From a virus, in IMG/VR virus record IMGVR_UViG_3300045988_088194: a stretch of DNA of 64,000 nt; one strand, given 5' to 3'. Shown here piece by piece: positions 3,043-18,535 of this stretch. Both the position numbers and the translations under genes were made by a program. Below the pieces are notes generated by a model, which was given only the letters and a program-made list of their open reading frames with translations, did no database searches and was not told the DNA's origin. Positions within the stretch are counted from its first letter, which is position 1, and each line of letters opens with the position of its first letter.

Positions 3043-3059
3043 TCACTAAAAAAAAAACA

Positions 3060-3692: not shown

Positions 3693-3734
3693 AAATATAC
3701 ATAGAAATTCACTTACGGAATAATTAGATTTATT

Positions 3735-3766
3735 GGGGAGACTAATAAAGTCTCCCTTATTTTTTC
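3735..3766 (+). terminator. intrinsic terminator
   Basis: Stem GGGAGACT/AGTCTCCC (3736-3743 / 3749-3756) followed by TTATTTTTT. Confidence 0.7.
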
Positions 3767-3841
3767 TTTATAAAATTAGTAATCAAATTAGAGAGTATGT
3801 AGATTAATACTTAATAACTTGGTTAATTAAAATTAAATACT

Positions 3842-3849
3842 TATCTTTG
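3842..3849 (+). promoter_or_regulatory. Bacteroidota-type -7 box TATCTTTG
   Basis: Matches TAnnTTTG, 26 nt upstream of the giant-ORF ATG in a very AT-rich spacer. Confidence 0.5.
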
Positions 3850-3875
3850 TCCTAAATCTAAATTATTATAATAAT

Positions 3876-6800
3876 ATGGCTTGTGTAAACACAAAGGAAA
3901 AAAGTTTTAAAGAGCTAGTTTCTAAATATGGTGCTTCATCAGGAACTGTAGAAAATGCCATTAAAATTTATATGGATAAAAATAATCTTGAGACCTATGA
4001 TACTAATTCTCAAGATTTCATAGACCATATGGATTCTTATTTTCAGCTTAAAAGCAGTAATTTCTACTCTTCTAAAGGTAAGTACAATAGAGCTCATGCT
4101 CTTTGGGAAAAAATAAATCCTACACAAAATGTAGCAGATATAAAGACTGCTACTAAAGAGTATAATGCTCTTGTTGAAATATTTGGAGAAAATAATGTTA
4201 CTGTTTTTGAAACTTCAGATGGAGGATTTAGAGTTAGGGCAGCTGAGCCTATATTTGGTGACGGTATTACTTCAGATAAGAAATTATTGAAGGAAATGTC
4301 TGACATTCTTTCTAAAGCTCCTAGAGATAAAAATGGTAATCTATTAGCTCCTAATGGTAAAAAGTCTAATTTAACTGAAAGACAATATGCTCAAGTAAGA
4401 ACTAAAGCTTTTAAAGAGTGGTTTGGTGATTGGGAAACATTAGCAGAAGGACATAATAAAAAACTTAATTTACCTGATAAACCATCTGGTCTTACTGATA
4501 CTTGGATAAAAGATAATATAGTAGAATTTAAAGGTTTATCTACGGGAACTAAATATAATATAGGCTATTCTGGTGGAAGATATTTTATCGTTATAAATAT
4601 TAATGGAATTAATGTTCCATTCTATAAATCCTCAGGTTTAGGTGGAAAAAAGAATGTTGAAGCAGGTAAATGGTATCCATTTTTTGGGATATCTAAAAAA
4701 GGATGGTTAAATAAGACTACTGAGGAGGAAATAAACAACTACTATAATAGTCAAGTACTTGAATTAATTTCTAATAAACTAGATTCATTATTTAATAATG
4801 AAGACTATGGTATAGAAATAGTAAATGGTATTCCAGTAAAGAAGGGTAAACAAGCTAATAACGCTATAGATTTAAACTTTACAGACGGAGAAAAAGTCAT
4901 AAATAAAGACCTTAATCCTACTGAAAATCATAAAGATAATACTGTAAATATAGTAAATAGTAATATTGAAAAAGTTAAAAGGAGTATATCTTATACTACT
5001 TTAAATAATAAAGTCTCAAAAGTAGTAGATGAAAATGGTGAACCTTTGGTTGTTTATCATTATACAGATAATGAAAGTCTGACTAAATTTAGTACAGAGT
5101 TTGATAATTATTTCTCAAAGGAAGGTGGTACTAAGAAAGCTATATTCTTTACAACAGATAATGTTGTACCTGGTAGTGAAGATAACTTCTTAACTAATAG
5201 AAAAGCTAAGCTGGCATTATTCTTAAATATAAAAAACTTAGAAGAGTTTCATGGTACTAAAGAAGATTTGCATAAACAAGGAACTTCTTATAGAGAAATA
5301 GTAAATAAATCTTCTGAAAGAGCAGGTCTTGAAAATGGTATAGTATTTACTGGTTTTGATGATAACAAGAAGGAGAATCAAACTATATATGTTGTTCATA
5401 ATCCAAATCAAATTAAATCAGCTACTAGTAATACAGGAGCTTTTTCTAAAATTAATGATAGAATAGACGATTTTGAAAGTAATGTAAAAGTTACTGTTGA
5501 ATATACTCCTATAGGAAAAAGTAGACAAACTTATACTATTAGAGGGAACAAAATCTTTAATAAAGAAGGTAAAGAAGTCTTTAAGACAGACAGTGTAGAT
5601 AGAAACAAGATTTTTGCCAATCTTGCAGTACAGCAAGGTAGAGCAGTAGTAGTAAATCATAAGAATAAAGAGTATGTTGTAAACAACAGAAATCAGATTA
5701 TCTCTGTTACTACTGGTAAAATGATGCAGTGGGATGAAAAGAATGGAGATAGAAATGCAATCATTAAAGCTGCTCAGGAAAAGTTTAGTAAAAACAAACC
5801 CTCTGAAAGTATTCAAAAATCTGCGTCTTTTAATTGGGGAAGAACTTCAGATAATAATTATGAAGTATCTTCAAAAGGAGATAAAAGATTTTCTGCTCTT
5901 AATGCTACCTTTAAGAAAGGTACTGTTATAGATGGAGTAGATGTAGGAGGAATGACCATTGAAGATGTATATCAGAAGGTCATTAAAAAGAGTGGTAAAG
6001 GTAAAGCTCCTGCTGTAGATAGTAAGTTAAATATTTCTTACAGAGTAAGTACCGAAGGAATTACTAAGCAATATGGAGTAGTAATAGATAAAAATTTAAA
6101 AAGAAATTATAGTGAATGGCAAAATGCTAATCCAAATGGTATAGTTGCGTATAGAGTTAATTATAGTAAATACAATACCCCTGAAGAAGCACAAGCTGGT
6201 AGAATAGGTAATCCATTTTCTGAAGGTATAGGACAAGCTAATAAAGGGGAAGATACTGTACAAAAGTTCTTTATTTGGCTTACTACTGGAAATAACTTTG
6301 GTAATCCAAAAGCTACTGAAGAATATAGACAAGCCATTCTTCATAAACTAATTAGTACTCCAAAAGGAACTAATATATTATATTATACTGAACTCAATAG
6401 ACCATCTCATGCAACTGTATTAGGTTATTTAATTAATCATAAGGAATTTATAACAAACTATAAAGATAGTGCAGAAGATTTCTCTTATACTGAAGGTTAT
6501 TTACCATTGTGGCAAGAATGGGCTAAACAAAACCCTGAATTAATAGAGGAACTAAGAACTAAAGCAGCAGGTAAAACTCTTACTGACCAGTTTGCTAATA
6601 CAAGAGTAAGTCAGGCAAGAGCTTTGGCTGATATTCTTAATTCTACTAATACTAAGTCAGAAACTATAGAAGAAGCTCCTATATTTGAAGAAGAAAATAA
6701 TAATATGCAATCTGCTAAAGAACTTGTAGATAGGATGATAGCAGATTCAAGAGAGCATATTAAATTTAACAAAGAGGACCATTCCTATATAGTAGATGGA

Positions 6801-9800
6801 AAAAAGGCTGATACCAGTGTTACTCAGTTTATACATGGTAAGAAAGACCTTGGTCAATGGGGAACAGCAGCCTCTGCCATAGGTACAACAGCAGACAGTG
6901 TCACAAGAGACTTCTTCAAAGGTGAGCTGAAAGATGAATATCCAAACTTGTCAGATAAGGACCTTTCCTTTCTCAAGCATGACTTGAAGAGCCTTAGGAA
7001 CTTCTTTGACAAGAAGTTTGGAAAGGACAAATATACAGTAGTGACTGAAGAGTTCCCAATAGCCTCAAAGTATACATACACTGACAAGGATGGAAAACTT
7101 AAGGGAGGTGTAATGGCAGGAACTATGGATATGCTTATCTATGATAATGAAGGTAACTTCTATATCTATGATATGAAGACTTCAAGAAGTGGTCTCAATG
7201 AGAACAAGGTTGCTGGATATGCAAAGCAGCTGACACTCTATAAGGCTATTCTTGAGGCCAATTATCCAGAGCTGAGAGGCAAGATAAAGGAGCTTAAACT
7301 TATTCAGTTTAGGGTAGGTTATCCACAACCTGGAGCTGACTTCATCTATTCAGCAACTGATGGTCAGTTATATCTTAATAATGTTCCTATTCAGGAGACT
7401 GAAGACTACTATGCACCTCACTTGGATTTTACTGGAAACAGTCTTGACAATCAGGTGCTTGTTCCAGTAGAACCTGTAAGTATGGATATTCACTTTGAAG
7501 GTATGACTGAAGATGAGGTAGAATCAATGAGGGAGGAAACAAGAGAGCCAGAGAGTACTGAGTTCTCACAGAATGAAGTAGATAGCCAGAGAGATAACCT
7601 CTATGGAAACCCTCTGCTTTCAGCTACAGAGAGAACATTCCTTGCTAACAATGTAATGAGTCTTACTTCCTTTATTGTTACTCACTTACAGACAAATCCT
7701 GAGGCTAATCAGTTCTATTTTGGAGACCAATTCAGTAGGCTCAACTTTACTAAGATGTCAAGAGAAGACATCATAAGTACTGTTGGGGTAACAAAGATAT
7801 TTGAGTATATAAAGGAAAGATGGTATAATCCTGATAACAGGACTGACATTGATGATTTTGATACTCTTGACAAGTTACAGATAGCCTATGACAACTGGGC
7901 AGCCCTTGTGAAGTCTGCCTATGCAAAACTTATAACTCTTGAAGGTGTTACAGTAGTTGCTGCAAGACCTGATGAAATAAGTAGAGAGGATATTGAGACC
8001 TCTTTTCAAGAACAGATAGATGCTGGTGAACTTGAAGAGAAAGAAAGGGAGTATTGGCAGCTTGGTATAAGAAACATATCAGCAAGGTCAAGTCTTAGTG
8101 GTGATATAAGAAGGTCATTTGAAAGGCTCTTTGCCATAGACTCCAATGGAAATCCTATAAAGGACAAGTTTGGTTTCAATTTTGATACTTTTGTAGATTC
8201 TGGTGTTGCTGTAAATAGTATCCTTGAATGGACCAGAACTGCTACAACTGTAGAAGAGATGGAGGAGATACTTGATGGAATGAAGGACTCTTATCCTTGG
8301 CTTAACTCTATCCTCAATAAGATAAAGGAAGAACCTTTCAGGTCTCAATTCTTTCAGAATTTCAGAAAGGACTTTACACAGTATAGTATTGTAACTGTGG
8401 AAAGGGATGAGAAAGGAAATAAGGTATATCAGACTCAAATAATTAACACTAAGGGAGCATCACAGTCTGTACTTGATGAGATTACTACCTATTATAATTC
8501 AGGACTTATGCAGAACATCATAATCACTGCTGATGGTATTGAAGGTAAGGGTAGGGTTAATGTCAAGAATGTTGAGGCTCTTAAGGCTGAGAAGGACAAA
8601 ATAGTATCTGACCTTAAGGGTGCATTCACTGCTGTGAGAAAGGAAGTATATAATAACACTCTCAAGAACTCTGTACCTAAGATTACAAAACTCCTAAATG
8701 AGTTAGGAATAAGAGTAGATGCCAAGACAGTCTCTAATACCATAGTTGGTAAAGAAAGACCTAAGGACATTAATAACTCCCCAGTAATGAAACTTCTGAG
8801 TGAAATGTCCTATATGTTTGATGCCTTGCTATCAAAGAAGGACTCTACCTCATATAATCCTCTTCTTAAAGGGGAGGAGAAGAACATCTATGGAAATTAT
8901 AAATCTATAGTTGGACTTATGAGCAAGTATATTCAGGACAGTATTGAGTCATCATCCTATGAGAATGGCAAGATGCACTACTCTTTTGTAACTCCTTCTT
9001 ATATGGGAAAACTTATTCTCAATCTGAAAGATGCCATTGGCAATCCAAGCAAGTTCAATTCATTTATGGAAGAGAATTATGGGTCATATAGATGGTTCAG
9101 GGAAGAGGATGGAACTTGGAATAATGCATGGCTTGAGTTGATTTCTGAAAGTAAGGATGCAAGACAAGGCTTGGAACATAAAGTTCAGTTGTCATTTGAT
9201 GGAACTCCTTACACTGATTTGAGTGAGTTGGGATATACTCTATCTCTTATGAGTGAGTACTTCTATGATAAGGGAAGTAGAGGAAAAGGTCCTCAGTGGG
9301 CATGGTACAGAGTTCCTATGCTTTCAAATAAACCTTCTTCCGAATTTATAAGGTTCAAGAGATACTCAGGTTCTGAATATAAGAGAAGAATCAAGAGGGG
9401 ACTCAAAATGGTTCTCAATCAGGAAGTTCTTAGGTTCAGAGCTGTACTTGAAAGAAGTGTGAATGCAAACATTGAACCTATCTCAAACTTTGATATAAGT
9501 TCTAAAGTCCTGAAGAAGAATCCTCAGATTGAGGCTAAGATGAGAGCTGGAGAACCTCTTACTCATGATGACCTTGTGAAGAATGGAAAACTTATAACTG
9601 CTGCAAGTGGAGCTTCCTTTAAGTTCCTTGAAGCTTTCAATCAAAATATAGTTGAAGGTGATGAGCTTGGAATGATGCTTATAGACAAGATAAATGGTGT
9701 CAGTGTAAATGAGGATTCTTTTGACAAGTTAGTCAATCAGAACCTTGATTCTTACATGGACATTATAGTAAGCAAGGAGATTTCACAGTGGGAGAAGATT

Positions 9801-12800
9801 GGTCTATTTGATACAGAGGAAGTCAGAAGGGGCGAAGATGTTGAAACAAGATATAAGTACATATCTAATCTTACAAGGTCATACTCAACTATAAAGAAAG
9901 AACTGTTTGGAAAGGAGAGAAGACTCTCCAAGGAACAGAAGTCTGAGATAATGCAGGTTATGGAGTCTGAGGCTAAGGCTAATCTTGAAGAGTATGTATG
10001 GAATGATATGTTTGCAACTATAAACATAATCCAACTTACTGCTACAGACCTTGCCTATTACAAGAATGTAGAGGACTTCCAGAAGAGGTATGCTCAAGTC
10101 CATTCTCCTGCAATGAGATTGAATATAACTGCAAGGGATTCAAAGGGTAGACTCTATTCTGCTGATGGAATGGAAAGAACCATGTACATTACAGATTATG
10201 AGGTAGAGTCTGACATAATTCCTAATGTTGAAGAGATATTTGACCAGAGGATTTCTTCAATCTCTGACCCTTCTGAAAAGGCTAACATGAAAATGATGAA
10301 GGACCTCATAGTTGATTCTTTCAGGAAGATTAATGTAGCAGATGCTCAGGGGTATTCATCACCTACTTCATACAGAAAGAAGATGGGTATGATGGGTAAG
10401 TGGTCTGATGAAATGGAAGAGGCTTATAATAGAATCAAGAGAGGAGACTTCAATGTCAATGACCTTGGTGTTGTCTGGCAGCCCTTAAAACCTTTTGTCT
10501 ATTCCCAGATTAGGAAACCAGGAGGTTCAGATGCTCTTTCTGAACTTAAGGTTCCTGTTCAGAACAAGAACTCTGAATATCTTCTCCTCCTTGCAGATGC
10601 ACTTATGAGAGGGGGAAAGAAGCAGAGCAAACTTGCTGCTATCTTTGATTTCATGGAGGAATCTGCCTATGATGGCAGAGAGACCCAATTCAATCCAAAG
10701 ACCAACACTTATGAGGTTGTAAAGGAAGGTACATACAATGGAAAGGGTATTGATACTGTCCAGTTTGAATCATCTGTGAAGTCAGGAAAGTCTGGAGTTG
10801 TGAACATAAATAAGGTAGAATCATATGAGGAAATTAAGAATATCCTTAATGAGGCTACATATATCAATTCTGACAGAACTGCTTCTTCTGATAATAATAA
10901 TGACAGATATAATGTCAATTACATCCATACAATCCCTTTTGAAGATTATGGCATTCAGCAGGAAGTTCCTGCCCACTTGGTAGACCATGAGCAGCTCATG
11001 GGTTCTCAGATGAGAATACTTAGTATAAGTGACATTACCCCAGGTACTGAGTTCCAGATAGGAGATGAACATCTTAAGAGTGATGAACTTATCAGTGAGT
11101 ATCAGAATCTTATAAAAGAAAACATTGAGCAGAGTTTTGAAAGACTGTGTAAAGATTTCAAGGTCAGAGGAACAAGGCTTGAAAGGAATAAGGCACTTGA
11201 GAAAATACTTCAGGAAGCTATTGAAAAGGACCAGAGGTATGGTGCTGATATACAGAGAGCTTGTTCTCTTGATAAGAATGGAGAATTTATAATCCCACTT
11301 AGTGACCCTATACAGTCTATCAGAATACAGCAACTTCTCAATTCTATTATAAAGAGCAGGATAAACAAGCAGAAGGTAACTGGTGGTCCAGTAGTTCAGG
11401 CTTCAGTATTTGGTATGTCAGATGACCTTTCAATAAGATTCAAGGACAAAGATGGAAATCTCATTGAAACTTATAGTGAGTTTGTAGAGAAGAGGGGTTT
11501 CTCAAAGGATAAATCTTCAGCAGCTAAATATAAGAAGTTCATTAATGACAAACAGGCTTCTGTGGCATACTTTGAGTGCTATATGCCTATTCCTTCTTCT
11601 GAACTTGAAGAAGCTCTTACAAGATATGATAAGGATGGACATGCATACATAATATCAATGGAAGAAGCAGTTAAGGAAGGTATAATTCCTGAAGAAATGA
11701 GAAAGGCTATTGGATATAGAATTCCTACAGAGGATAAGTATTCTATGGCTCCTCTCTATATAAAAGGATTTCTTCCTAAAGCAGCTGGAGAGGCAGTGAT
11801 GCTCCCTAAAGAGATTACTCTTCTTTCAGGTTCTGACTTTGATATTGACAAGCTGTATGTGATGCTTAAGACTTTCACTCTCAAGAGGAGAACTGATTGG
11901 GGTAAACTTGAAAAAGATATTCTCAAATCAAGCAAGGCTAAAGGAGAAGAGAGAAAGAAGAGAAAGGAAGCCTTGAGGATAGTCATTGAGCAGATTAAGG
12001 CTGGAATGGAGTTTAGTGAAGGCACCTTTGAAATGGCTGTGCATGACTATTATTATGACCATAGAGACAGGTATGATAGAGCTTCTTTTGAACTGTCTGA
12101 TGGTGGTACTGATAGAAGGAACAACAGGATATTTGACCTTCAGTGGGCTGTTCTCACTAACCCTGACACAATGAGCAAGATGTTTAATCCTGGTTCATTT
12201 GATGTACAGAAGAAGACTGCAAGAATTGTAAGGATACTTCAGGAGACAAAGGGTCATACCTATCAGGAGTTGAGCAAGCTTAATCTTGACCAGCTTGATG
12301 AAATACTTGACTCTTCAACTGACAGGAATATCATCTACTCAACTTCTCAGGTGTACTTCCATAAGCAGAATATGACTGCTGGCAAGTTGATTGGTATATT
12401 TGCTAATAATAACACCAGTCACGCATTTATTTCTATGCAGGGAATAGACTTAAAGTTAGGAGATGACCTTAAGTTTACATTTGATGGAGTCACAGTAGAT
12501 GAGAATCAAAATAATAGATTGGACCCACTGAAAGGAAAAAATGGTAGTTTAATTAGTAAAACTATTGCAGGTTTTCTTGCAGCCTCTGTGGATGCTGTGA
12601 AGGACCCAGTACTTAACTTTATGAATCTTAATACATTTACTTCTGGACCAGCAATGGTTCTGGCAAGACTTGGTTTTGATTCTGACAGTATAGGTCTGCT
12701 TCTCTCTCAGCCTATTATAAGAAGGGTGACTGATGAATACTTCAGGAGGAACAATGAGGGTTACATCTCAGCTGAGGACCTAATTGATGAGTTTCTTGAA

Positions 12801-14399
12801 CAGGACAAGAATGCAAAGGGTTATGAAAAGACTCTTACTCTAACTAACTTCTCTAAAGAAGAACTTGCTCAGGGTATATCACTTAATAGTGATAAAGGAG
12901 ACTTTCAGACAAGAGCACTTATTTTGTTCAAGAGGTTGTCAAAAATATCACAGGACTTTGGCACACTTACATTCCTTACTAAGTTCAACTCAGTAACCAA
13001 TGCTGTTGGTCCAACCATTGCAGATACCCTTGTAATGAAGCAGAGATATAAGAAGTTCCTTGACAAGTTTGAGGATGGCAATGCAATCTTCTCAGATAAT
13101 GCAAAGAATGTCATTCAGAACTCTCCTATTCTTGATGCCTTCTATACAACCACAGTATCTGATACTGGGGCTTCTCAGTTGATATTCCAGGGATATTTCC
13201 CTCAGTACTCTGATAAATTCAATCAGGTTCTTGGAAAGTTCAGAGAAACCACAAAGGCAAATGTAGATAGCAAGACTATCAATTCCCTTGTCAGTGACTT
13301 TGTTCTTTACAAACTTACTGGAGGACCAAACCCAGTTCTTAATTCAGATGGAAAGGTAAGAGAAGAGTTCATCCATGACTTTATAGTAGAGTTTAAGGAG
13401 AAGGCTGCTGGAATAGTAGATAATGAACTTATCAAGATTATAACTGTTAAACCTTCTACTGGAAAATGTCCTGTTCCAACTTTGGAAGCAAAGACTGGTG
13501 GATATACTCAGGATGTTCAAGAGAGAGTAAGAGATGCTTGGACAAATCTTATAACAAATGAAAGTACAAGAGACCTTGGAGTCAAACTATTCTTCTACAA
13601 TATGTACAGAACAGGACTTTCATTCAGTCCTAAGACTTTCCTTCACCTTGCTTCAACTGATGTGAAACTTGCAATTCCAGGATATGTTGAAAGTATTAGG
13701 GATATCAATTATAATGACTCCTTTGATGTGAATGACTTCCTTCTTCAGTATAGAAGGAATCATACAGACAACTTCAGGGTTGTTCCTCATATAACACAGA
13801 GAAAGGGAATTGCATCTTCTATCACTGAAGATAGAGCTGGTAACAGGAAGATAACCTTCACATTTGCTTCAGACAGTGCTTCTTCACAGTTCATTGTCAA
13901 GAAGGTAAAAAGGGGAAGTGGAAAAGTATCTACTAAAGAGACAATAGCTGCTCCTGTTATCCTCTATAATGATAAGGTGTATTTCAATCCTGAAATCAAC
14001 TCAGATGGTTCTATTACTTATACTGAAACAACAACTCTTGGTAATACCAACAACTTCCTTGAATATGATATGAATGAATCTGGAAGTGAGATAAGAACTT
14101 CTATTCAGAGAACTTCTGAAGAAGATGTACATGAGAAGGAGGTTCAGGAGTCTCCAGCAAGAGAAGTTCCTGAGGATGATGGAGAGACTGAAGCAGTAGA
14201 GCTCTCAGAGACTGATATTGAGAATATACTCAGTGAGATATTTGATGAGGGTGAACTGGACAGTCTTATGACATCTCTTGTCAAAGGACAATCAAAGAAG
14301 GTAGACAAGTATAAGAGTATGATTGAAGAGCACACAGACTCTGAGACTGCTTCTAAGGTTATGAAGAAAATGATAGATATTGTAAAGGGAATTTGCTAA
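3876..14399 (+). CDS. giant virion RNA polymerase polyprotein (crAss-type vRNAP) with N-terminal polyvalent-protein modules and a PD-(D/E)xK nuclease domain
   Basis: Uninterrupted 3507-aa ORF. DFDID (DxDxD) at nt 11835-11849. Nuclease motifs D1085, D1099-M-K1101, Q1118xxxY1122 (nt 7128-7241). WFGDWE at 4419. VVYHYT...QIKSA module at 5016-5450. GNPF...HATVL DUF4326-like module at 6150-6440. Confidence 0.8.
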   Translation: MACVNTKEKSFKELVSKYGASSGTVENAIKIYMDKNNLETYDTNSQDFIDHMDSYFQLKSSNFYSSKGKYNRAHALWEKINPTQNVADIKTATKEYNALVEIFGENNVTVFETSDGGFRVRAAEPIFGDGITSDKKLLKEMSDILSKAPRDKNGNLLAPNGKKSNLTERQYAQVRTKAFKEWFGDWETLAEGHNKKLNLPDKPSGLTDTWIKDNIVEFKGLSTGTKYNIGYSGGRYFIVININGINVPFYKSSGLGGKKNVEAGKWYPFFGISKKGWLNKTTEEEINNYYNSQVLELISNKLDSLFNNEDYGIEIVNGIPVKKGKQANNAIDLNFTDGEKVINKDLNPTENHKDNTVNIVNSNIEKVKRSISYTTLNNKVSKVVDENGEPLVVYHYTDNESLTKFSTEFDNYFSKEGGTKKAIFFTTDNVVPGSEDNFLTNRKAKLALFLNIKNLEEFHGTKEDLHKQGTSYREIVNKSSERAGLENGIVFTGFDDNKKENQTIYVVHNPNQIKSATSNTGAFSKINDRIDDFESNVKVTVEYTPIGKSRQTYTIRGNKIFNKEGKEVFKTDSVDRNKIFANLAVQQGRAVVVNHKNKEYVVNNRNQIISVTTGKMMQWDEKNGDRNAIIKAAQEKFSKNKPSESIQKSASFNWGRTSDNNYEVSSKGDKRFSALNATFKKGTVIDGVDVGGMTIEDVYQKVIKKSGKGKAPAVDSKLNISYRVSTEGITKQYGVVIDKNLKRNYSEWQNANPNGIVAYRVNYSKYNTPEEAQAGRIGNPFSEGIGQANKGEDTVQKFFIWLTTGNNFGNPKATEEYRQAILHKLISTPKGTNILYYTELNRPSHATVLGYLINHKEFITNYKDSAEDFSYTEGYLPLWQEWAKQNPELIEELRTKAAGKTLTDQFANTRVSQARALADILNSTNTKSETIEEAPIFEEENNNMQSAKELVDRMIADSREHIKFNKEDHSYIVDGKKADTSVTQFIHGKKDLGQWGTAASAIGTTADSVTRDFFKGELKDEYPNLSDKDLSFLKHDLKSLRNFFDKKFGKDKYTVVTEEFPIASKYTYTDKDGKLKGGVMAGTMDMLIYDNEGNFYIYDMKTSRSGLNENKVAGYAKQLTLYKAILEANYPELRGKIKELKLIQFRVGYPQPGADFIYSATDGQLYLNNVPIQETEDYYAPHLDFTGNSLDNQVLVPVEPVSMDIHFEGMTEDEVESMREETREPESTEFSQNEVDSQRDNLYGNPLLSATERTFLANNVMSLTSFIVTHLQTNPEANQFYFGDQFSRLNFTKMSREDIISTVGVTKIFEYIKERWYNPDNRTDIDDFDTLDKLQIAYDNWAALVKSAYAKLITLEGVTVVAARPDEISREDIETSFQEQIDAGELEEKEREYWQLGIRNISARSSLSGDIRRSFERLFAIDSNGNPIKDKFGFNFDTFVDSGVAVNSILEWTRTATTVEEMEEILDGMKDSYPWLNSILNKIKEEPFRSQFFQNFRKDFTQYSIVTVERDEKGNKVYQTQIINTKGASQSVLDEITTYYNSGLMQNIIITADGIEGKGRVNVKNVEALKAEKDKIVSDLKGAFTAVRKEVYNNTLKNSVPKITKLLNELGIRVDAKTVSNTIVGKERPKDINNSPVMKLLSEMSYMFDALLSKKDSTSYNPLLKGEEKNIYGNYKSIVGLMSKYIQDSIESSSYENGKMHYSFVTPSYMGKLILNLKDAIGNPSKFNSFMEENYGSYRWFREEDGTWNNAWLELISESKDARQGLEHKVQLSFDGTPYTDLSELGYTLSLMSEYFYDKGSRGKGPQWAWYRVPMLSNKPSSEFIRFKRYSGSEYKRRIKRGLKMVLNQEVLRFRAVLERSVNANIEPISNFDISSKVLKKNPQIEAKMRAGEPLTHDDLVKNGKLITAASGASFKFLEAFNQNIVEGDELGMMLIDKINGVSVNEDSFDKLVNQNLDSYMDIIVSKEISQWEKIGLFDTEEVRRGEDVETRYKYISNLTRSYSTIKKELFGKERRLSKEQKSEIMQVMESEAKANLEEYVWNDMFATINIIQLTATDLAYYKNVEDFQKRYAQVHSPAMRLNITARDSKGRLYSADGMERTMYITDYEVESDIIPNVEEIFDQRISSISDPSEKANMKMMKDLIVDSFRKINVADAQGYSSPTSYRKKMGMMGKWSDEMEEAYNRIKRGDFNVNDLGVVWQPLKPFVYSQIRKPGGSDALSELKVPVQNKNSEYLLLLADALMRGGKKQSKLAAIFDFMEESAYDGRETQFNPKTNTYEVVKEGTYNGKGIDTVQFESSVKSGKSGVVNINKVESYEEIKNILNEATYINSDRTASSDNNNDRYNVNYIHTIPFEDYGIQQEVPAHLVDHEQLMGSQMRILSISDITPGTEFQIGDEHLKSDELISEYQNLIKENIEQSFERLCKDFKVRGTRLERNKALEKILQEAIEKDQRYGADIQRACSLDKNGEFIIPLSDPIQSIRIQQLLNSIIKSRINKQKVTGGPVVQASVFGMSDDLSIRFKDKDGNLIETYSEFVEKRGFSKDKSSAAKYKKFINDKQASVAYFECYMPIPSSELEEALTRYDKDGHAYIISMEEAVKEGIIPEEMRKAIGYRIPTEDKYSMAPLYIKGFLPKAAGEAVMLPKEITLLSGSDFDIDKLYVMLKTFTLKRRTDWGKLEKDILKSSKAKGEERKKRKEALRIVIEQIKAGMEFSEGTFEMAVHDYYYDHRDRYDRASFELSDGGTDRRNNRIFDLQWAVLTNPDTMSKMFNPGSFDVQKKTARIVRILQETKGHTYQELSKLNLDQLDEILDSSTDRNIIYSTSQVYFHKQNMTAGKLIGIFANNNTSHAFISMQGIDLKLGDDLKFTFDGVTVDENQNNRLDPLKGKNGSLISKTIAGFLAASVDAVKDPVLNFMNLNTFTSGPAMVLARLGFDSDSIGLLLSQPIIRRVTDEYFRRNNEGYISAEDLIDEFLEQDKNAKGYEKTLTLTNFSKEELAQGISLNSDKGDFQTRALILFKRLSKISQDFGTLTFLTKFNSVTNAVGPTIADTLVMKQRYKKFLDKFEDGNAIFSDNAKNVIQNSPILDAFYTTTVSDTGASQLIFQGYFPQYSDKFNQVLGKFRETTKANVDSKTINSLVSDFVLYKLTGGPNPVLNSDGKVREEFIHDFIVEFKEKAAGIVDNELIKIITVKPSTGKCPVPTLEAKTGGYTQDVQERVRDAWTNLITNESTRDLGVKLFFYNMYRTGLSFSPKTFLHLASTDVKLAIPGYVESIRDINYNDSFDVNDFLLQYRRNHTDNFRVVPHITQRKGIASSITEDRAGNRKITFTFASDSASSQFIVKKVKRGSGKVSTKETIAAPVILYNDKVYFNPEINSDGSITYTETTTLGNTNNFLEYDMNESGSEIRTSIQRTSEEDVHEKEVQESPAREVPEDDGETEAVELSETDIENILSEIFDEGELDSLMTSLVKGQSKKVDKYKSMIEEHTDSETASKVMKKMIDIVKGIC

Positions 14400-14400
14400 T

Positions 14401-17400
14401 ATGGTTAAATCTTGTGTTTATGTTCCTACAGTGAAAGTAGGAAACCAGGAAGTGGATAGCCAGCTCTTTAGGGAGCTGGTTACCTACACTGGTAATAGAG
14501 AATCAGCAAAGTACATTTGGGGACTTACTCAGGTTCCTGAGTTCATGAGTTCTCTTAAGGGTATTGAGAAGGATAAGAATGGAGAACCTACTCTTTCTTC
14601 TCTCACTAAGGCTATTGATATAGACAGTCTATTAGATGAAGGTATATCAATAGAAGGTGCTAAGAAAGAACTTGGTGCTATAAATAGTAAAGGGGAACCT
14701 GTTATACATTCTTCTACTGATGAGATTATCAACTCAGTAGTTAAATTCAATAAGAACCATCCAAAGATGGTTGCTGATATTGGAAGTAAAGATGGAGGAT
14801 ATGTAATAAATGTTGAGCCTAAGACTCCTCAGAATGCAACCTCTCCTGAAAAGCTTGTATTCAACAGTTCTCTTAACAATCAGTTGAGGGGTATCCTTAG
14901 AAGGCTTGGGTTTGATGTTGAGGTACTCAGTACTCCAAGATTCAATGCTATGTTCAGTCCTGAGAATGCAAGAACAAATGCAGAAGGATTAAAGACAGTC
15001 ATACAGATAGCCAAAGGTCAGAGAGGGGAAGATGCCTTTCCCGAAGAGTTCAGCCATCTTATGATAGAAGGACTTATCAACCAGCCTTTAGTTCAGAGGC
15101 TTGTAAATTCTGTAGGTTCTTATGAAGTCCTAAAGGAAATTCTTGGTGAAAACTTTGATACCTATGTAAGGCTTTATAAAGGAGATATGGAATCTCTCCA
15201 GAAGGAAGCTGCTGGACAACTGCTTCAGAAGTATATCACTGGTGAGAGTCTTCCTGTAAGTAGGCCTTCTCTGCTTGAAAGACTTTGGAATTGGATTAAG
15301 TCCAAGTTTGGCAGTATGTCTGAAGATGATGTTGATAATATCATACTACAGGCCAATAGAGACGCTTCTCAGGTAGCAAGTTCTATCCTTGATGAGTCTA
15401 TACTTCCATTAGTAGATAAAGACCTTATAGTTAATGCAAAGACCTTGTACAATGTAGAGAGGTCTGTATCTGGAATGGAGGAACTGGCTCAGAAGGCTCT
15501 TGAGGTTGCAAGTAAGAGACTTGAGATTTTAAGATTAAGAAGTAGAAGTGGTAGATATAGTGAAGATGACCTTAAGTCAATAAAGAATCTTCAGGACCTT
15601 ATTGAAAAGAAGAAATACTCCAAGAGCTGTCTTGCTTTTCTTTCAGATAGCCTTCAACAGTTAGAACAACTGAATACCAACTTAAGTAAACTTGATGCTA
15701 ACAACCTTAGTGAAGAGTCAGACTTGAACAGAATCAGAAAGATTAGTTCTACTCTAAGGAAAATTAAGGAGTTCTCAGATGCATATGAGCCTATCATCAA
15801 ACAGATGATGAGTATAGATGCTATGAAGGAGAGAGGAGAGGTTGAACTGTCTGCTGAAGATGCTGCTACTATTGCAGACAAGGCTTCCTCTGTATTCAGA
15901 ATAATCACCAAGATTAACTCTGGGTATAAGAGCATGAGGTTCAATACTCTTTACAGCTTCCTTAAGATGTACTGGGGGGAGGATAAGATTATTGATTCTG
16001 GAAAAGATAAGGGCAAGAGAATTACTCTTGAAATGATAATGAAGATGGCTGATAAGGATATTAACTTCCTTGACAGATATATCAGTTCAATGAGTGATGC
16101 ATCAGACCCAATGCTGTCTCTTGTAGATAAGGTAGTCAAATCTACACAGTCTAAGAGGGATTCAGTGCTTGAGGAGGTTCTTGCAGGAGTGAGAAGTGCC
16201 CATACTAAACTTTCACAGGCTGGATATACTACAGACTTTATGTATGAGAGAGACAAGAATGGAAAGCTTACTGGAAGAATAATAAGTGATATTGACTTTG
16301 TTAAGTTTAAGGAGGAGTATGATGCTGAGAAGAAGAGACTTATGGATGAAAAACTTCCTTACTATACAGTCAAGTCAAAACTTGATGCATGGGAAAGAAG
16401 ACATACTGAAACTGTTCTTATAGATGCAGACTCAGGTAGAAAGGAAGAACTTCCTAAGAAGAGTCTTTATGGTGTTGACAGAATAAGTAAACTTGCACCT
16501 GCACAGAGAGAGTATTACAACACTATGATTAACCTTAAGGCTACTCTTGACTCTCTAATACCAGCAAGGTTTGCAAATACTTTCAATGCAGTCCAGATAA
16601 GGAATGATGTTACTGAAGCCATCATGGATAATGTGACCAATCCTAAGAAGTCTGGGAAGATGGTTATAGAGAACCTCAAGGACAGTTTCCTCAGAAGAAG
16701 TGATGACACTGACTGGGGAGATACAACAGTTCTTGGTGATGGAGAATCCCCTATTCTTACTAAGGCAAAGAAGATAGGTCTGGATTTCTCAGGTAATCCT
16801 ATACAGAAACTGCCAGTGTACTATACAACTCCTCTTGAAGATATGGAGAGGCTGAGTACAGATTTCACCTCATCTATTATGGCATACGCATCTATGGCAA
16901 TAAACTATAATGAGATGAGTAAAGTGATTGATGTACTTGAACTTACAAGAGACCTTATCAAAGAGAGGGAAGTTCAGCAGATGTCTGGAGACTCAAAACT
17001 GATAGATGCTTTCAAGGTTGTCCATAAGAAGTTCAGTAAGAACTATACCAAGTCTGGAGAAAGAACTAACATTGGAGAGAGAATAGATGATTATTATGCT
17101 TCTGTTCTGTATGGTCAGCATAAGAAAGATGAAGGAGCTTGGAATGTTTTTGGTAAGGAGATAGATAAAGCCAAGACTATGGATGCTTTGAAGAGTTATA
17201 CAGGAGCACTTGGACTTGGTCTTAACCTGTTCTCTGCTATAAGCAATGTCACTATGGGTAAGATGCAGTTGTTCATAGAGGCTATGTCTGGAGAATACTT
17301 CAATATGAAAGACTCAGCCATAGGTAAGAAGAACTACTATGCACTTCTTCCACAGTATATGGCAGAACTTAACTCTACAAAGAAAACAAGTAAGCTTGGT

Positions 17401-18480
17401 CTCCTTATAGACAAGTTTGATGCTCTTGAAGAGTTCTATGGAAACCTTAAATCACAAGGGTATTACAAAGGACCTTTGTCAAGAATTATAGGTTCTGCAA
17501 ATATATTCTTCCTTAACAACATGGGAGAGCACTATCTTCACAGTAGGAATATGCTGGCTATGCTCAATAATGTCAAAGTAAAGGACAGAAGTGGAAAAGA
17601 GATGAGCCTGTTTGATGCTTTTGAAGTAAAGACAGACCCTGAAGGGGCATCAAAGATAGTCCTTAAGGAGGGAACAAAAGACCTTGATGGTAATCTTCTT
17701 TCTACAGAAGGGCTTGACAGGAACTCTGAATTGTATGAAGAAGTGGAGAAGAGATATGATGACTTCATTACAAACCAGAAACTAAGGATTGGAAAGGTCA
17801 ATCAATCTCTTAATGGTGCATTCAATGAGACTGACAAAGGAGCTATCCATAGATATTCTCTTGGAAGACTTGCTATGCAGTTTAGACAGTGGATGCCTGC
17901 CCATTACTCAAGAAGGTTCTCAAGTGCAAGTTATGATGCCAAACTTGACCATTGGAGAGAAGGTTATTACAGAACTATAGCAAGATTTGCTATAAACCTT
18001 ATGAAAGATATAGGCAGAGCAAAGTTTGACCTTGCAACCAACTGGAACAGTCTTAGCACCCATGAGAAGGCAAACATAAGAAGGGCTTTAACAGAACTTG
18101 GAATGTTTGCTACACTTTCAGCACTTATTGCCATGATAGGACCTGAGAAGGATAAGAAAGGCAGATGGGGCGAGAGAATGATTGTATATCAGCTTAAGAG
18201 AATGCAACTTGAGACTGGTGCCTCTATACCTTGGTTCTCAGCCATTGAGAATGCATGGACCATATTACAAAGTCCAGCAGCAGCCATAAACAGTTTCAAT
18301 GGACTGCTTGATTTGGTTAAGTTCTGGAACATGTTTAATGAACTTGAATCTGGAAGATACAAGGGGTGGAGTGAGTGGGAGAGAGATGCTTCACAGGCAA
18401 TTCCTCTTTATGGTCAGCTTAGGAAGATAGCAGACCTCTCTGAGGAAGATTATATGTACACTATATTTGCTGATAGATAA
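14401..18480 (+). CDS. large virion/ejection-associated protein (hypothetical)
   Basis: 1359-aa ORF starting 1 nt after the vRNAP stop. Coiled-coil-rich. Its position next to the vRNAP matches the large cargo-protein genes of crAss-like phages. Confidence 0.5.
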   Translation: MVKSCVYVPTVKVGNQEVDSQLFRELVTYTGNRESAKYIWGLTQVPEFMSSLKGIEKDKNGEPTLSSLTKAIDIDSLLDEGISIEGAKKELGAINSKGEPVIHSSTDEIINSVVKFNKNHPKMVADIGSKDGGYVINVEPKTPQNATSPEKLVFNSSLNNQLRGILRRLGFDVEVLSTPRFNAMFSPENARTNAEGLKTVIQIAKGQRGEDAFPEEFSHLMIEGLINQPLVQRLVNSVGSYEVLKEILGENFDTYVRLYKGDMESLQKEAAGQLLQKYITGESLPVSRPSLLERLWNWIKSKFGSMSEDDVDNIILQANRDASQVASSILDESILPLVDKDLIVNAKTLYNVERSVSGMEELAQKALEVASKRLEILRLRSRSGRYSEDDLKSIKNLQDLIEKKKYSKSCLAFLSDSLQQLEQLNTNLSKLDANNLSEESDLNRIRKISSTLRKIKEFSDAYEPIIKQMMSIDAMKERGEVELSAEDAATIADKASSVFRIITKINSGYKSMRFNTLYSFLKMYWGEDKIIDSGKDKGKRITLEMIMKMADKDINFLDRYISSMSDASDPMLSLVDKVVKSTQSKRDSVLEEVLAGVRSAHTKLSQAGYTTDFMYERDKNGKLTGRIISDIDFVKFKEEYDAEKKRLMDEKLPYYTVKSKLDAWERRHTETVLIDADSGRKEELPKKSLYGVDRISKLAPAQREYYNTMINLKATLDSLIPARFANTFNAVQIRNDVTEAIMDNVTNPKKSGKMVIENLKDSFLRRSDDTDWGDTTVLGDGESPILTKAKKIGLDFSGNPIQKLPVYYTTPLEDMERLSTDFTSSIMAYASMAINYNEMSKVIDVLELTRDLIKEREVQQMSGDSKLIDAFKVVHKKFSKNYTKSGERTNIGERIDDYYASVLYGQHKKDEGAWNVFGKEIDKAKTMDALKSYTGALGLGLNLFSAISNVTMGKMQLFIEAMSGEYFNMKDSAIGKKNYYALLPQYMAELNSTKKTSKLGLLIDKFDALEEFYGNLKSQGYYKGPLSRIIGSANIFFLNNMGEHYLHSRNMLAMLNNVKVKDRSGKEMSLFDAFEVKTDPEGASKIVLKEGTKDLDGNLLSTEGLDRNSELYEEVEKRYDDFITNQKLRIGKVNQSLNGAFNETDKGAIHRYSLGRLAMQFRQWMPAHYSRRFSSASYDAKLDHWREGYYRTIARFAINLMKDIGRAKFDLATNWNSLSTHEKANIRRALTELGMFATLSALIAMIGPEKDKKGRWGERMIVYQLKRMQLETGASIPWFSAIENAWTILQSPAAAINSFNGLLDLVKFWNMFNELESGRYKGWSEWERDASQAIPLYGQLRKIADLSEEDYMYTIFADR

Positions 18481-18521
18481 AAAAAAGAGGAAGTAGTTAT
18501 TCTACTTCCTCTTTTTTTTTC
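18481..18521. terminator. bidirectional intrinsic terminator between convergent genes
   Basis: A-run, stem AGAGGAAGTAG/CTACTTCCTCT (18486-18496 / 18502-18512), then a T-run. Confidence 0.8.
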
Positions 18522-18535
18522 TTTTTGTAGTATCT

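What the first reader, a model, noticed from the sequence alone, without database searches (positions are those of the whole stretch)
3876..14399. One 3507-aa ORF fuses effector-like modules and a nuclease to the virion RNA polymerase
The C-terminal ~2300 aa carry the DFDID (DxDxD) motif at nt 11835-11849 and match the size of crAss-type virion RNAPs. An extra ~1150 aa sit in front of that. They include:
- a WFGDWE motif (nt 4419);
- a VVDENGEPLVVYHYT...NQIKSATSNTGAF module (5016-5450), of the kind described in phage and conjugative-element polyvalent proteins and predicted there to be ART-like;
- a GNPF...HATVLGYLIN DUF4326-like module (6150-6440);
- a complete PD-(D/E)xK nuclease motif set (7128-7241).
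In phage phi14:2 the homologous RNAP is packaged and injected with the DNA. Fusing these modules to it would therefore deliver candidate anti-defence effectors into the cell at the moment of infection.
Basis: partly seen in the sequence, partly recalled or inferred. Interest (0 to 1): 0.75.

Follow-up and report, generated by a model that had tools for sequence, protein, structure and literature searches.

The report
Effector modules fused to crAss virion RNA polymerase
A gut crAss-like phage has its virion RNA polymerase gene fused to an ADP-ribosyltransferase, a nuclease and several unknown domains. Most of this add-on is a recently swapped-in cassette missing from near-identical strains, but the general design is common in public crAss genomes.

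Summary
The 3,507-aa ORF (3876-14399, +) is real, and the identical protein occurs on 7 long contigs. Its C-terminal ~2,200 aa are a crAss-type virion RNA polymerase: its DFDID aligns with the catalytic DFDID of phi14:2 gp66 (PDB 6VR4).

The N-terminal ~1,160 aa look like a polyvalent protein:
- a leader domain;
- an ART-PolyVal unit (Pfam, above threshold) whose "WFGDWE" prefix is separated from its core by an inserted domain;
- a ~135-aa unknown domain split by a nested GNPF...SHAT domain;
- a RecB/Cas4-like PD-(D/E)xK nuclease (Pfam, above threshold, motifs intact).

The DUF4326 label for the GNPF module is not confirmed. Pfam gives no hit, and the remote profile and fold signals are weak.

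New here:
- Residues ~75-945 are a compositionally foreign cassette (GC3 ~0.09-0.15 against ~0.35).
- It is absent from 93-97%-identical strains.
- It is built from modules shared at 80-89% nucleotide identity with phages whose polymerases are only 36-39% identical.

The architecture type is not rare. ART sits in the polymerase ORF in 11 of 80 IMG/VR relatives and in RefSeq cr116_1, and PDDEXK in crAss transcription proteins is published. Delivery of effectors at injection is plausible but inferred.

The parts
3876..14399 (+). Single 3,507-aa ORF (398 kDa): N-terminal effector-module array plus crAss-type virion RNA polymerase
   Evidence: The identical protein is on 7 long contigs.
3735..3757 (+). 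Terminator-like hairpin ending the upstream gene block. A TAnnTTTG motif (TATCTTTG, 3842-3849) lies 26 nt before the ATG.
   Evidence: 1 terminator-like site found, 0.0 expected. Motif position. That TAnnTTTG is the Bacteroidetes -7 promoter consensus is from my own knowledge.
3876..4256 (+). D1: N-terminal leader domain (aa 1-127), starting MACVN..K.FK.L
   Evidence: Homologous D1 is found at the start of relatives' polymerase ORFs. An MxCVN start occurs in 27 of 80 IMG/VR polymerase ORFs. No Pfam family.
4098..6708 (+). Strain-variable, compositionally foreign cassette (aa ~75-945)
   Evidence: In L007 and L008 (93-97% nt identity in the flanks) it is replaced by 214 nt. In L003 it is replaced by 63 nt. 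GC3 is 0.09-0.15 against 0.34-0.37 for the rest of the gene. GC of a near-identical stretch (4254-6710) ranks 4th lowest of 308 equal-length windows.
4284..4445 (+). D2: 'APNGK.SNLT..QY..VRT..FK.WFGDWE' element (aa 137-190), the conserved prefix of ART-PolyVal units
   Evidence: In other proteins it is followed directly by 'N.P..ASKVVDENGEPLVVYH', and it is repeated 4-6 times in polyvalent proteins P0099, P0114 and P0117. phrog_30335 also matches.
4461..5012 (+). D3: unknown ~185-aa domain inserted between the WFGDWE prefix and the ART core
   Evidence: The insertion point is seen by comparison with P0009, P0038 and P0054. Part of it matches 'structural proteins' of Cellulophaga phages phi17:2 and phi4:1. 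No Pfam family.
5028..5444 (+). ART-PolyVal ADP-ribosyltransferase domain (aa 385-523)
   Evidence: Pfam PF18760, E 5e-13, 50.5 bits, above the 31.2 cut-off. H395 is conserved; the strand-2 aromatic is F424, not Y, throughout this crAss clade.
5466..5816 (+). D5: unknown ~115-aa module
   Evidence: It recurs as a unit in P0002, P0095, P0158, P0174, L017 and L091. No Pfam family.
5817..6035 (+). D6: N-terminal half (aa 648-720) of a ~135-aa unknown domain (NYEVSSKGDKRFSAL...TIE.VYQ)
   Evidence: D6 and D8 are contiguous in most homologues (alignment A4). AF2 model pLDDT 91, with no PDB fold match.
6093..6455 (+).
   Evidence: Alignment A1. 285 family members, mostly inside proteins of 2,000-7,500 aa. 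AF2 pLDDT 91. The DUF4326 relation is only weak.
6462..6680 (+). D8: C-terminal half (aa 863-935) of the D6/D8 domain (LW.EWA.QNPELIEEL...LTD.FA.T.VSQARALA.ILN)
   Evidence: phrog_9995 matches aa 873-924.
6711..7355 (+). RecB/Cas4-like PD-(D/E)xK nuclease (aa ~946-1160): D1085, D1099-x-K1101, Q1118xxxY1122
   Evidence: Pfam PDDEXK_1 scores 25-30 bits against a cut-off of 22. phrog_298 and phrog_1218 'exonuclease' match. It is retained at 93-95% identity in the cassette-less strains L006 and L007.
7881..14396 (+). crAss-type two-barrel virion RNA polymerase body (aa ~1336-3507). DFDID is at nt 11835-11849.
   Evidence: 33-35% identity over ~86% of the length to Steigviridae polymerases, including crAss001. 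PDB 6VR4, E 2.4e-37, with DFDID aligned.
14401..18480 (+). Downstream 1,359-aa gene of the transcription or cargo block
   Evidence: It is syntenic in L003, cr116_1 and IAS virus. No Pfam family and no HExxH motif.
18536..23842 (-). Convergent 1,768-aa gene of the same block
   Evidence: It is syntenic in L003 (1,767 aa) and cr116_1. No Pfam family and no HExxH motif.

Best explanation
This is a genuine gene for a crAss-type virion RNA polymerase. Its N-terminus serves as a modular slot for polyvalent-protein-type effector domains.

Shown:
- The polymerase body (aa ~1336-3507) is homologous to phi14:2 gp66 and the crAss001 polymerase, with the catalytic DFDID aligned.
- In front of it lie, in order: D1 leader; D2 (WFGDWE prefix), then inserted D3, then the ART-PolyVal core; D5; the D6/D8 domain split by the nested D7 (GNPF/SHAT) domain; and a PD-(D/E)xK nuclease.
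- The nuclease is a stable part of this polymerase lineage.
- Residues ~75-945 are a recently recombined, low-GC cassette. Near-identical strains lack it, and its modules circulate among very distant crAss-like phages.

Inferred:
- The homologous polymerases are packaged in the capsid and ejected with the DNA. The fused modules would therefore enter the cell with the first proteins and act before any phage gene is expressed.
- The ART would use NAD+ to modify a host target, by analogy with T4 Alt.
- D6/D8 and D7 probably process ADP-ribose or nucleotide-derived molecules. Their relatives are fused to DUF4326, Macro, SLOG and DUF488 domains.
- The nuclease acts on DNA. It may attack host DNA, or it may resect the entering genome end to expose the single-stranded template that gp66 prefers in vitro.
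- The conserved D2/'SKVVDENGEP' junctions probably also serve as recombination sites for module swapping.
For: Polymerase:
- establish homology and the aligned DFDID.

Domain identities:
- ART-PolyVal and PDDEXK_1 score above the Pfam cut-offs.
- The nuclease motifs are intact.

Nested architecture:
-.

D6/D8 partners:
- Its relatives are fused to DUF4326 (P0189, P0214, P0238), Macro (P0204), DUF488 (P0165) and Kinase-PolyVal (P0147), with SLOG PF10686 listed among precomputed domains.

Cassette:
- Colinear strains L007 and L008 (93-97% nt identity) carry 214 nt in place of w4098-6708. L003 carries 63 nt in place of w4254-6710.
- GC3 is 0.09-0.15 inside the cassette. It is 0.34-0.37 outside it and 0.35-0.42 in D1 of the cassette-less strains.
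- Module-sized patches at 80-89% nt identity occur in phages whose polymerase is 36-39% identical.

Generality:
- ART is in the polymerase ORF in 11 of 80 IMG/VR loci. D6/D8 is there in 5 and D7 in 1.
- Kinase-PolyVal and SF1 helicase domains occur in others. cr116_1 gp051 has ART.

Packaging precedent:
- gp66 is a virion protein that transcribes early genes and prefers single-stranded DNA (bioRxiv 10.1101/2020.03.07.982082).
- crAss001 gp47, gp49 and gp50 were found in virions by mass spectrometry (PMC10172136).
- The polyvalent-protein concept, including an ART fused to an N4-type virion RNA polymerase, is in PMC5512222.
Against: - No experiment shows that this N-terminus is packaged, ejected or active.
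- The ART of this crAss clade has F where the H-Y-D family has Y. The position of the catalytic acid could not be fixed: 'TIYVV' stands where several other members have 'EYVV'.
- D7 lacks the Cys residues of DUF4326.
- None of the three large proteins of this phage has a zincin HExxH motif, so there is no obvious way to release the modules.
- PADLOC and NCBIfam give no hit.
- Cassette-less strains are evidently viable, so the cassette is dispensable.
Confidence: 0.6

Rival explanations
1. The N-terminal modules serve the phage's own early transcription and DNA handling, not attack on the host. The nuclease resects the incoming genome end to give the polymerase a single-stranded template. The ART and the other modules regulate the polymerase or phage DNA.
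For: - gp66 transcribes single-stranded or denatured DNA well and double-stranded DNA poorly (bioRxiv 10.1101/2020.03.07.982082).
- The nuclease is the conserved part: it is kept in L003 and L006-L009.
- A PDDEXK domain recurs in transcription-block proteins of other crAss phages, for example IAS virus gp057 (PMC7886860).
- phrog_298 and phrog_1218 name it 'exonuclease'.
Against: - Most crAss polymerases surveyed have no fused copy of this nuclease: the query nuclease sequence hit 4 of 80 ORFs.
- The cassette modules are strain-variable and horizontally shuffled. That pattern fits arms-race effectors better than core transcription factors.
- ART-PolyVal is typical of polyvalent effector proteins (PMC5512222).
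Confidence: 0.2
2. The N-terminal extension is removed before or during packaging. It would be an assembly or targeting propeptide, or a late intracellular enzyme, so nothing beyond the polymerase is delivered.
For: - The gp66 authors suggest that N-terminal parts may refold or be cleaved on activation, and that fused polyproteins are probably cleaved (bioRxiv 10.1101/2020.03.07.982082).
- D1 is a conserved N-terminal cap of the polymerases that carry these extensions. That would fit a targeting signal.
Against: - The three large proteins of this phage have no recognisable protease motif.
- In polyvalent proteins generally, such modules are predicted to be virion-embedded (PMC5512222, PMC9503650).
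- The crAss001 capsid has megadalton-scale space for cargo (PMC10172136).
Confidence: 0.12
3. The modules are decaying passengers, inactive relics of recombination with no current function.
For: - The ART has F for Y and lacks the 'E' of the EYVV motif.
- D7 has lost the DUF4326-type cysteines.
- Strains without the cassette exist.
Against: - The 10.5-kb frame is intact, and the identical protein is found on 7 contigs.
- The substitutions are clade-wide and conserved, not sporadic.
- D7 keeps invariant R760, GNPF, W801, YY, E839 and [ST]HAT across 136 sequences.
- Modules are held at 80-89% nt identity across distant phages.
Confidence: 0.06

Closest known systems
phi14:2 gp66 (PDB 6VR4) and the crAss001 RNA polymerase (gp47): crAss-type virion RNA polymerases
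   Same: - The polymerase body is homologous (E 2.4e-37 to 6VR4; 33% identity over 85% of the length to crAss001), with DFDID aligned.
- The synteny with two other very large genes is the same.
   Different: gp66 has 2,180 aa with DFDID at residues 1361-1365. Here DFDID is at residues 2654-2658, so about 1,290 extra residues precede the shared core. They carry the ART, the nuclease and the unknown modules.
uncultured phage cr116_1 gp051 (RefSeq NC_055882, YP_010111550.1; Steigviridae, Pamirivirus)
   Same: - It is the closest catalogued polymerase (35% identity).
- It also starts with D1/D2 (42% identity over aa 1-188).
- It also carries ART-PolyVal, at aa 248-376, in front of the polymerase.
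   Different: - No D3, D5, D6/D8, D7 or nuclease match was found there at E<=1e-5.
- Its polymerase gene is interrupted by an extra ORF.
- It is annotated only as VOG3903 or hypothetical protein.
Polyvalent proteins of phages and conjugative elements (Iyer et al. 2017, PMC5512222), in particular the N4-like vRNAP + ART protein of Roseovarius Plymouth podovirus 1
   Same: - Several unrelated enzymatic modules sit in one polypeptide together with a virion-delivered RNA polymerase.
- The ART family is the same (ART-PolyVal, H-Y-D clade).
- D7 relatives sit mostly inside proteins of 2,000-7,500 aa.
   Different: - The polymerase is a two-barrel crAss/QDE-1-type enzyme, unrelated to the T7/N4 single-subunit type.
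- No zincin peptidase is present here, whereas N4-like polymerases are said always to carry one.
T4 Alt (head-packaged ADP-ribosyltransferase)
   Same: The concept is the same: an ART injected with the DNA that modifies host proteins at the start of infection (PMC5512222).
   Different: - Alt belongs to the R-S-E clade, a different ART clade.
- It is a separate small protein and is not fused to a polymerase.
PDDEXK domain in large transcription-block proteins of crAss-like phages (Yutin et al. 2021, PMC7886860), e.g. IAS virus gp057
   Same: The nuclease family is the same (PDDEXK_1; 33% identity to the IAS virus copy).
   Different: In IAS virus the nuclease lies in the gene downstream of the polymerase. 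Here, and in L003 and L006-L009, it is fused to the N-terminal side of the polymerase itself.

Membership tests
crAss-type virion RNA polymerase (phi14:2 gp66 family) | Significant sequence similarity to gp66, with the DFDxD catalytic motif aligned | tested here: met
   6VR4 matches at E 2.4e-37. GSDFDIDKLYVML aligns to GSDFDIDKMYVML.
crAss-type virion RNA polymerase (phi14:2 gp66 family) | Genomic context: a block of very large genes next to the polymerase in a crAss-like genome | tested here: met
   Genes of 1,359 aa and 1,768 aa flank it, syntenic with L003, cr116_1 and IAS virus.
crAss-type virion RNA polymerase (phi14:2 gp66 family) | Packaged in the virion and active on early genes | not testable with these tools
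   Known only for phi14:2 gp66 and, for packaging, crAss001 gp47 (bioRxiv 10.1101/2020.03.07.982082; PMC10172136).
ART-PolyVal (Pfam PF18760) | Score above the Pfam gathering threshold over the full model | tested here: met
   50.5 bits against 31.2; model positions 1-140 of 140; aa 385-523.
ART-PolyVal (Pfam PF18760) | H-Y-D active-site configuration (PMC5512222) | tested here: inconclusive
   H395 is conserved. The strand-2 position is F424 throughout this crAss clade. D495/D496 are present, but the catalytic acid could not be assigned: 'TIYVV' stands where several other members have 'EYVV'.
PD-(D/E)xK nuclease (Pfam PDDEXK_1, PF12705) | Score above the gathering threshold | tested here: met
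   25.2 bits on the whole protein and 30.1 bits on the segment, against 22. PHROG 'exonuclease' families also match.
PD-(D/E)xK nuclease (Pfam PDDEXK_1, PF12705) | Catalytic D...(D/E)xK motif plus QxxxY | tested here: met
   D1085, D1099-M-K1101 and Q1118-LTL-Y1122, read directly from the translation. That QxxxY is a RecB-family motif is from my own knowledge.
DUF4326 (Pfam PF14216) | Match to the Pfam model | tested here: not met
   No hit at E<=10 for the segment or for 11 D7 family members. One distant member, P0351, reaches only 15.3 bits against 25.
DUF4326 (Pfam PF14216) | Conserved C.C.P..CH cysteine cluster after the GNPF motif (invariant in the 4 bona fide domains aligned here, A2) | tested here: not met
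   The D7 family has Y836-Y837...[ST]844-H845 at those positions, conserved across 136 sequences.
DUF4326 (Pfam PF14216) | Remote profile or fold similarity | tested here: inconclusive
   - hhalign gives 87% probability (63% with a deeper profile), over about 35 columns around GNPF only.
- Foldseek against BFVD gives no significant hit (best E 0.43). Even so, 8 of the top 23 hits are DUF4326 proteins, with TM-scores (normalised to the query) of 0.29-0.46.
- Nothing was found in the PDB.
Polyvalent proteins (Iyer et al. 2017) | Two or more unrelated effector or enzymatic domains in one polypeptide of a phage or conjugative element | tested here: met
   ART, PD-(D/E)xK nuclease, RNA polymerase and at least four further modules are present.
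Polyvalent proteins (Iyer et al. 2017) | Linked to a protein that is transferred with the DNA | tested here: met
   The array is fused to a homologue of a virion-packaged polymerase. Transfer itself was not tested.
Polyvalent proteins (Iyer et al. 2017) | Processing peptidase (zincin-like MPTase; frequent, and always present with N4-like polymerases) | tested here: not met
   No HExxH motif and no peptidase Pfam hit in this ORF or its two large neighbours.

The most novel reading that the evidence does not exclude
The N-terminus of the crAss virion RNA polymerase is a hot-swappable delivery slot for effectors. Cassettes of ART and ADP-ribose or nucleotide-processing modules are exchanged between distant gut crAss-like phages. 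These include two uncharacterised enzyme families, D6/D8 and the Cys-less GNPF/SHAT domain. Exchange happens by recombination at conserved junction elements, and it produces strain-level presence or absence polymorphism that sets which host defences, such as NAD+/ADPr-based ones, a strain can overcome. In parallel, the fused RecB-like nuclease makes the single-stranded template that this polymerase needs.
Probability: 0.3. Interest if true: 0.75.

Novelty: new variant of a known kind. Interest (0 to 1): 0.5.

Why it matters
crAss-like phages are the most abundant viruses of the human gut, yet how they overcome Bacteroidales defences is largely unknown.

If the injected polymerase doubles as a carrier for exchangeable effector cassettes, two things would follow. 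It would explain part of the extreme size variation of crAss polymerase genes. It would also give a concrete, testable source of strain-level differences in host range.

The natural pair of strains, with and without the 2.6-kb cassette, is a ready-made experiment.

The two unnamed domain families keep company with DUF4326, Macro, SLOG and DUF488 domains. That makes them candidates for new enzymes of ADP-ribose or nucleotide-signal metabolism.

Tried and rejected
1. DUF4326 for the GNPF module.
- Pfam on the segment and on 11 family members at E<=10 gave nothing.
- A full HMMER search of 1.84 billion representatives, followed by Pfam on 10 distant small members, gave one sub-threshold hit.
- hhalign aligned only ~35 columns.
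- Foldseek against BFVD and the PDB gave nothing significant.
- Conclusion: not a member; possibly a distant relative.

2. D6/D8 as a DUF4326 relative.
- A MAFFT alignment put the D7 fragments onto D6/D8 in a suggestive colinear way. I therefore suspected that D6/D8, D7 and DUF4326 were all related.
- hhalign rejected this: probability 0.2% and 1.5%.

3. DUF4326 annotations on D6/D8 homologues. These turned out to be adjacent domains, not the matching region.

4. One joint structure prediction of aa 640-945. I abandoned it because MAFFT would not place the D7 fragments correctly. Two separate models were made instead.

5. The third homologous-protein search, on the polymerase core, returned only 11 proteins and was useless as a survey. 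It was replaced by the search for related loci.

6. Searches that found nothing for the N-terminal 1,200 aa: PDB sequence search, PADLOC and NCBIfam.

7. Assembly chimera as an explanation for the GC3 jump. This is rejected, because the identical protein is on 7 contigs.

8. Pfam on cr6_1 gp37 failed because the gene has 29 in-frame stop codons under the standard code.
Full report
OBSERVATION

The window holds one ATG-initiated ORF at 3876..14399 on the + strand. It encodes 3,507 aa, or 398 kDa.

- The exact protein is recorded on 7 contigs of 50-200 kb, for example ENA ERZ1310047 NODE_16, 98,404 bp. The fusion is therefore not an assembly artefact.
- A terminator-like hairpin (3735-3757) closes the upstream block of metallophosphoesterase, Thy1 and a small ORF.
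- A TAnnTTTG motif lies 26 nt before the ATG.

POLYMERASE PART

- The C-terminal 2,307 aa match annotated 'putative RNA polymerase' genes of Steigviridae at 33-35% identity over ~86% of the length. These include crAss001, cr116_1 and Kehishuvirus.
- They match phi14:2 gp66 (PDB 6VR4) at E 2.4e-37.
- GSDFDIDKLYVML aligns to GSDFDIDKMYVML of gp66, which holds the catalytic DFDID.
- In gp66 that motif is at residues 1361-1365. Here it is at 2654-2658, so about 1,290 residues are extra at the N-terminal side.
- Downstream lie a 1,359-aa gene and a convergent 1,768-aa gene, as in the relatives.

ANATOMY OF THE N-TERMINAL 1,160 RESIDUES

Pfam places two domains above their curated cut-offs.
- ART-PolyVal covers aa 385-523, at E 5e-13 and 50.5 bits (cut-off 31.2).
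- PDDEXK_1 covers aa ~1053-1147, at 25-30 bits (cut-off 22).
- PHROG 'exonuclease' families cover aa 936-1143.
- The nuclease motifs are intact: D1085, D1099-x-K1101 and Q1118xxxY1122.

I mapped the matches of about 240 database homologues onto the query. This gives the following map:
- D1: aa 1-127.
- D2: aa 137-190.
- D3: aa 196-379.
- ART: aa 380-530.
- D5: aa 531-647.
- D6: aa 648-720.
- D7: aa ~740-860.
- D8: aa 863-935.
- Nuclease: aa 946-1160.

Two nestings stand out.

First, D3 splits an ART unit.
- D2 ('LLAPNGK.SNLT..QY..VRT..FK.WFGDWE') is normally followed at once by 'N.P..ASKVVDENGEPLVVYH', the start of the ART core.
- The D2 prefix recurs 4-6 times in polyvalent proteins such as P0099, P0114 and P0117.
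- In the window, 190 residues (D3) sit exactly between WFGDWE and SKVVDENGEP.

Second, D7 splits the D6/D8 domain.
- D6 and D8 are contiguous in most homologues and form one ~135-aa domain (alignment A4).
- In the window, D7 is inserted between them.
- Other homologues carry different inserts at the same point, for example P0136, P0150, P0185 and P0203.

THE 'DUF4326-LIKE' CLAIM

Evidence against membership of the Pfam family:
- Pfam DUF4326 hits neither the segment nor any of 11 family members at E<=10.
- The cysteines invariant in the four DUF4326 domains aligned here (C.C.P..CH) are replaced by Y836-Y837 and [ST]844-H845. That replacement is conserved over 136 sequences.

Weak signals in favour of a distant relationship:
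- hhalign against four bona fide DUF4326 domains gives 87% probability. With a deeper profile it gives 63%. Both cover only ~35 columns around GNPF.
- The AF2 model (pLDDT 91) has no significant match in BFVD (best E 0.43). Even so, 8 of the top 23 hits are 'DUF4326 domain-containing protein', with TM-scores (normalised to the query) of 0.29-0.46.
- The model has no match in the PDB.
- One distant family member scores 15 bits on DUF4326 against a cut-off of 25.

I conclude that D7 is a family of its own, possibly a Cys-less distant relative of DUF4326. It has 285 members at E<=1e-3, and most of those listed lie inside proteins of 2,000-7,500 aa.

The D6/D8 domain is unrelated to DUF4326 by hhalign, and its model has no PDB fold match. 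However, its relatives are fused side by side to bona fide DUF4326, Macro, DUF488, SLOG and Kinase-PolyVal domains. Iyer et al. link DUF4326, SLOG, Macro and NADAR domains to processing of ADP-ribose derivatives (PMC9503650).

THE CASSETTE

Three relatives define the variable region.
- The Logan contig L003 is colinear with the window at 74-78% nucleotide identity. It has 63 nt where the window has 4254-6710.
- IMG/VR contigs L007 and L008 are 93-97% identical to the window over 1-4097 and 6709-21723, so they are the same phage at strain level. They have 214 nt in place of 4098-6708.
- L006 keeps only the last residues of D8 ('ADILNSTNTKSE...').

Composition marks the region as foreign.
- Codon third-position GC is 0.09-0.15 for aa 75-945. 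It is 0.34-0.37 for the rest of the gene.
- It is 0.35-0.42 for D1 of L006 and L007.
- The 44-residue stretch of L006 that contains this remnant is also low, at 0.16.

The modules also circulate separately.
- Individual modules occur at 80-89% nucleotide identity in contigs whose polymerase core is only 36-39% identical at protein level. Examples are L031, L037, L081 and L085.
- No locus in IMG/VR holds the whole cassette.

The region is therefore a recently recombined, foreign mosaic. The nuclease lies outside it and is conserved at 93-95% in the cassette-less strains.

HOW COMMON THE DESIGN IS

Among 80 IMG/VR polymerase loci, the stretch of ORF upstream of a fixed core position ranges from ~1,020 to ~3,030 aa. 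In the window it is 2,099 aa.

Modules found in the same ORF as the polymerase:
- ART in 11 loci.
- D6/D8 in 5.
- D7 in 1.
- This nuclease in 4.

Other findings from the survey:
- 27 of the 80 ORFs begin with the D1 signature MxCVN.
- Other extensions carry Kinase-PolyVal and SF1 helicase domains. By eye, some also have HExxH motifs.
- RefSeq cr116_1 gp051, the closest catalogued polymerase, has D1/D2 and an ART-PolyVal domain at aa 248-376. It is annotated only as VOG3903 or hypothetical protein.
- In Suoliviridae (cr6_1, cr56_1) the ART sits in the gene next to a ~4,400-aa giant.
- In IAS virus the PDDEXK domain is in the gene after the polymerase.

LITERATURE

- Yutin et al. 2021 already report a PDDEXK domain in a large transcription protein (PMC7886860).
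- The gp66 paper mentions fused polyproteins and a zincin domain in gp65.
- Iyer et al. 2017 define ART-PolyVal on an ART fused to an N4-type virion RNA polymerase (PMC5512222).
- I found no paper in the searchable library that describes ART or polyvalent modules on crAss-type polymerases.

MECHANISM

What is shown is the architecture, the family assignments of the ART, the nuclease and the polymerase, and the recent modular exchange.

What is inferred is function.
- gp66 is packaged and transcribes early genes. crAss001 gp47 is found in virions by mass spectrometry (PMC10172136). The fused modules would therefore enter the cell with the polymerase and act before any phage gene is expressed.
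- The ART most likely modifies a host target with NAD+, on the T4 Alt model.
- D6/D8 with D7 most likely process ADP-ribose or nucleotide-derived molecules.
- The nuclease may attack host DNA. Alternatively it may resect the entering genome end to expose single-stranded template, which gp66 strongly prefers in vitro.

Caveats:
- This ART clade has F for the family's Y, and its catalytic acid could not be assigned.
- The three large proteins of this phage have no peptidase motif.
- PADLOC and NCBIfam are silent.
- The cassette is dispensable, because cassette-less strains exist.

VERDICT

The finding is not a new kind of system. It is a polyvalent-protein architecture built on the crAss-type polymerase, and that design proves widespread but is essentially unannotated.

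What is new:
- the strain-level cassette polymorphism with its clear compositional signature;
- the nested domain organisation;
- two unnamed domain families.

Noticed in passing
window 11723/11724 (codon 2616, 'GYRI|PTE', 38 codons before DFDID); L003 7192-8087; L001 11522-12361: - In L003 the polymerase gene is interrupted exactly here by an 896-nt insertion that carries an HNH_3 ORF.
- cr116_1 has a similar interruption between gp051 and gp049, containing gp050.
- Many database polymerase fragments end at this residue (P0003, P0060-P0068, P0075, P0090, P0102).
- This looks like a recurrent group-I-intron or homing-endonuclease site. The window has no insertion there.
   Followed up: partly
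window 6036-6461 (junction between D6 and D8); P0133, P0136, P0150, P0162, P0185, P0203, P0205: The loop between the two halves of the D6/D8 domain is a hot spot for nested guest domains. Different homologues carry unrelated inserts of 50-290 aa at the same point. One type of insert has a 'GERTATTRY' motif.
   Followed up: partly
P0217-P0235 (about 524-aa proteins); P0226: The D6/D8 domain also occurs at the N-terminus of proteins that Pfam matches to the T7-type RNA polymerase family (PF00940). In P0226 a DUF4326 domain is present too. The same small domain thus accompanies both unrelated kinds of phage RNA polymerase.
   Followed up: no
window 3876-3980 and the first ~45 aa of 27 of 80 IMG/VR polymerase ORFs (e.g. 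L012, L022, L029): A conserved N-terminal signature 'MxCVN..SKEFK.L......S..T.E.I.H.Y' caps polymerase ORFs. I saw it in the ORFs with N-terminal extensions that I inspected, whatever modules followed. It may be a packaging or ejection leader.
   Followed up: partly
L006 aa 131-174 of the polymerase ORF (locus nt ~6410-6541): The cassette-less strain L006 retains the last residues of D8 ('ADILNSTNTKSEAVEEAPVFEEENNNMQSAKE'), and this 44-residue stretch has low GC3 (0.16). The window has 'DIL' at both aa 143-145 and aa 919-921. This suggests L006 arose by deletion between short repeats, not that it never had the cassette.
   Followed up: partly
L004 8734-13416 (cr6_1 gp37, the ART-bearing gene): The annotated CDS has 29 in-frame stop codons under the standard bacterial code. 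This fits the stop-codon reassignment reported for some crAss-like phages.
   Followed up: no
window 949-3042: Two adjacent metallophosphoesterase genes (949-1530 and 1527-2213) and a Thy1/ThyX thymidylate synthase gene (2200-3042) lie just upstream of the polymerase gene.
   Followed up: no
window 3735-3757 and 3842-3849: A strong terminator-like hairpin (GGGGAGACT...AGTCTCCC followed by a T-run) ends the upstream block. A TAnnTTTG motif (TATCTTTG) lies 26 nt before the polymerase ATG. By my own recollection this matches the Bacteroidetes -7 promoter consensus. That would fit host-polymerase transcription of this gene, as reported for phi14:2.
   Followed up: partly
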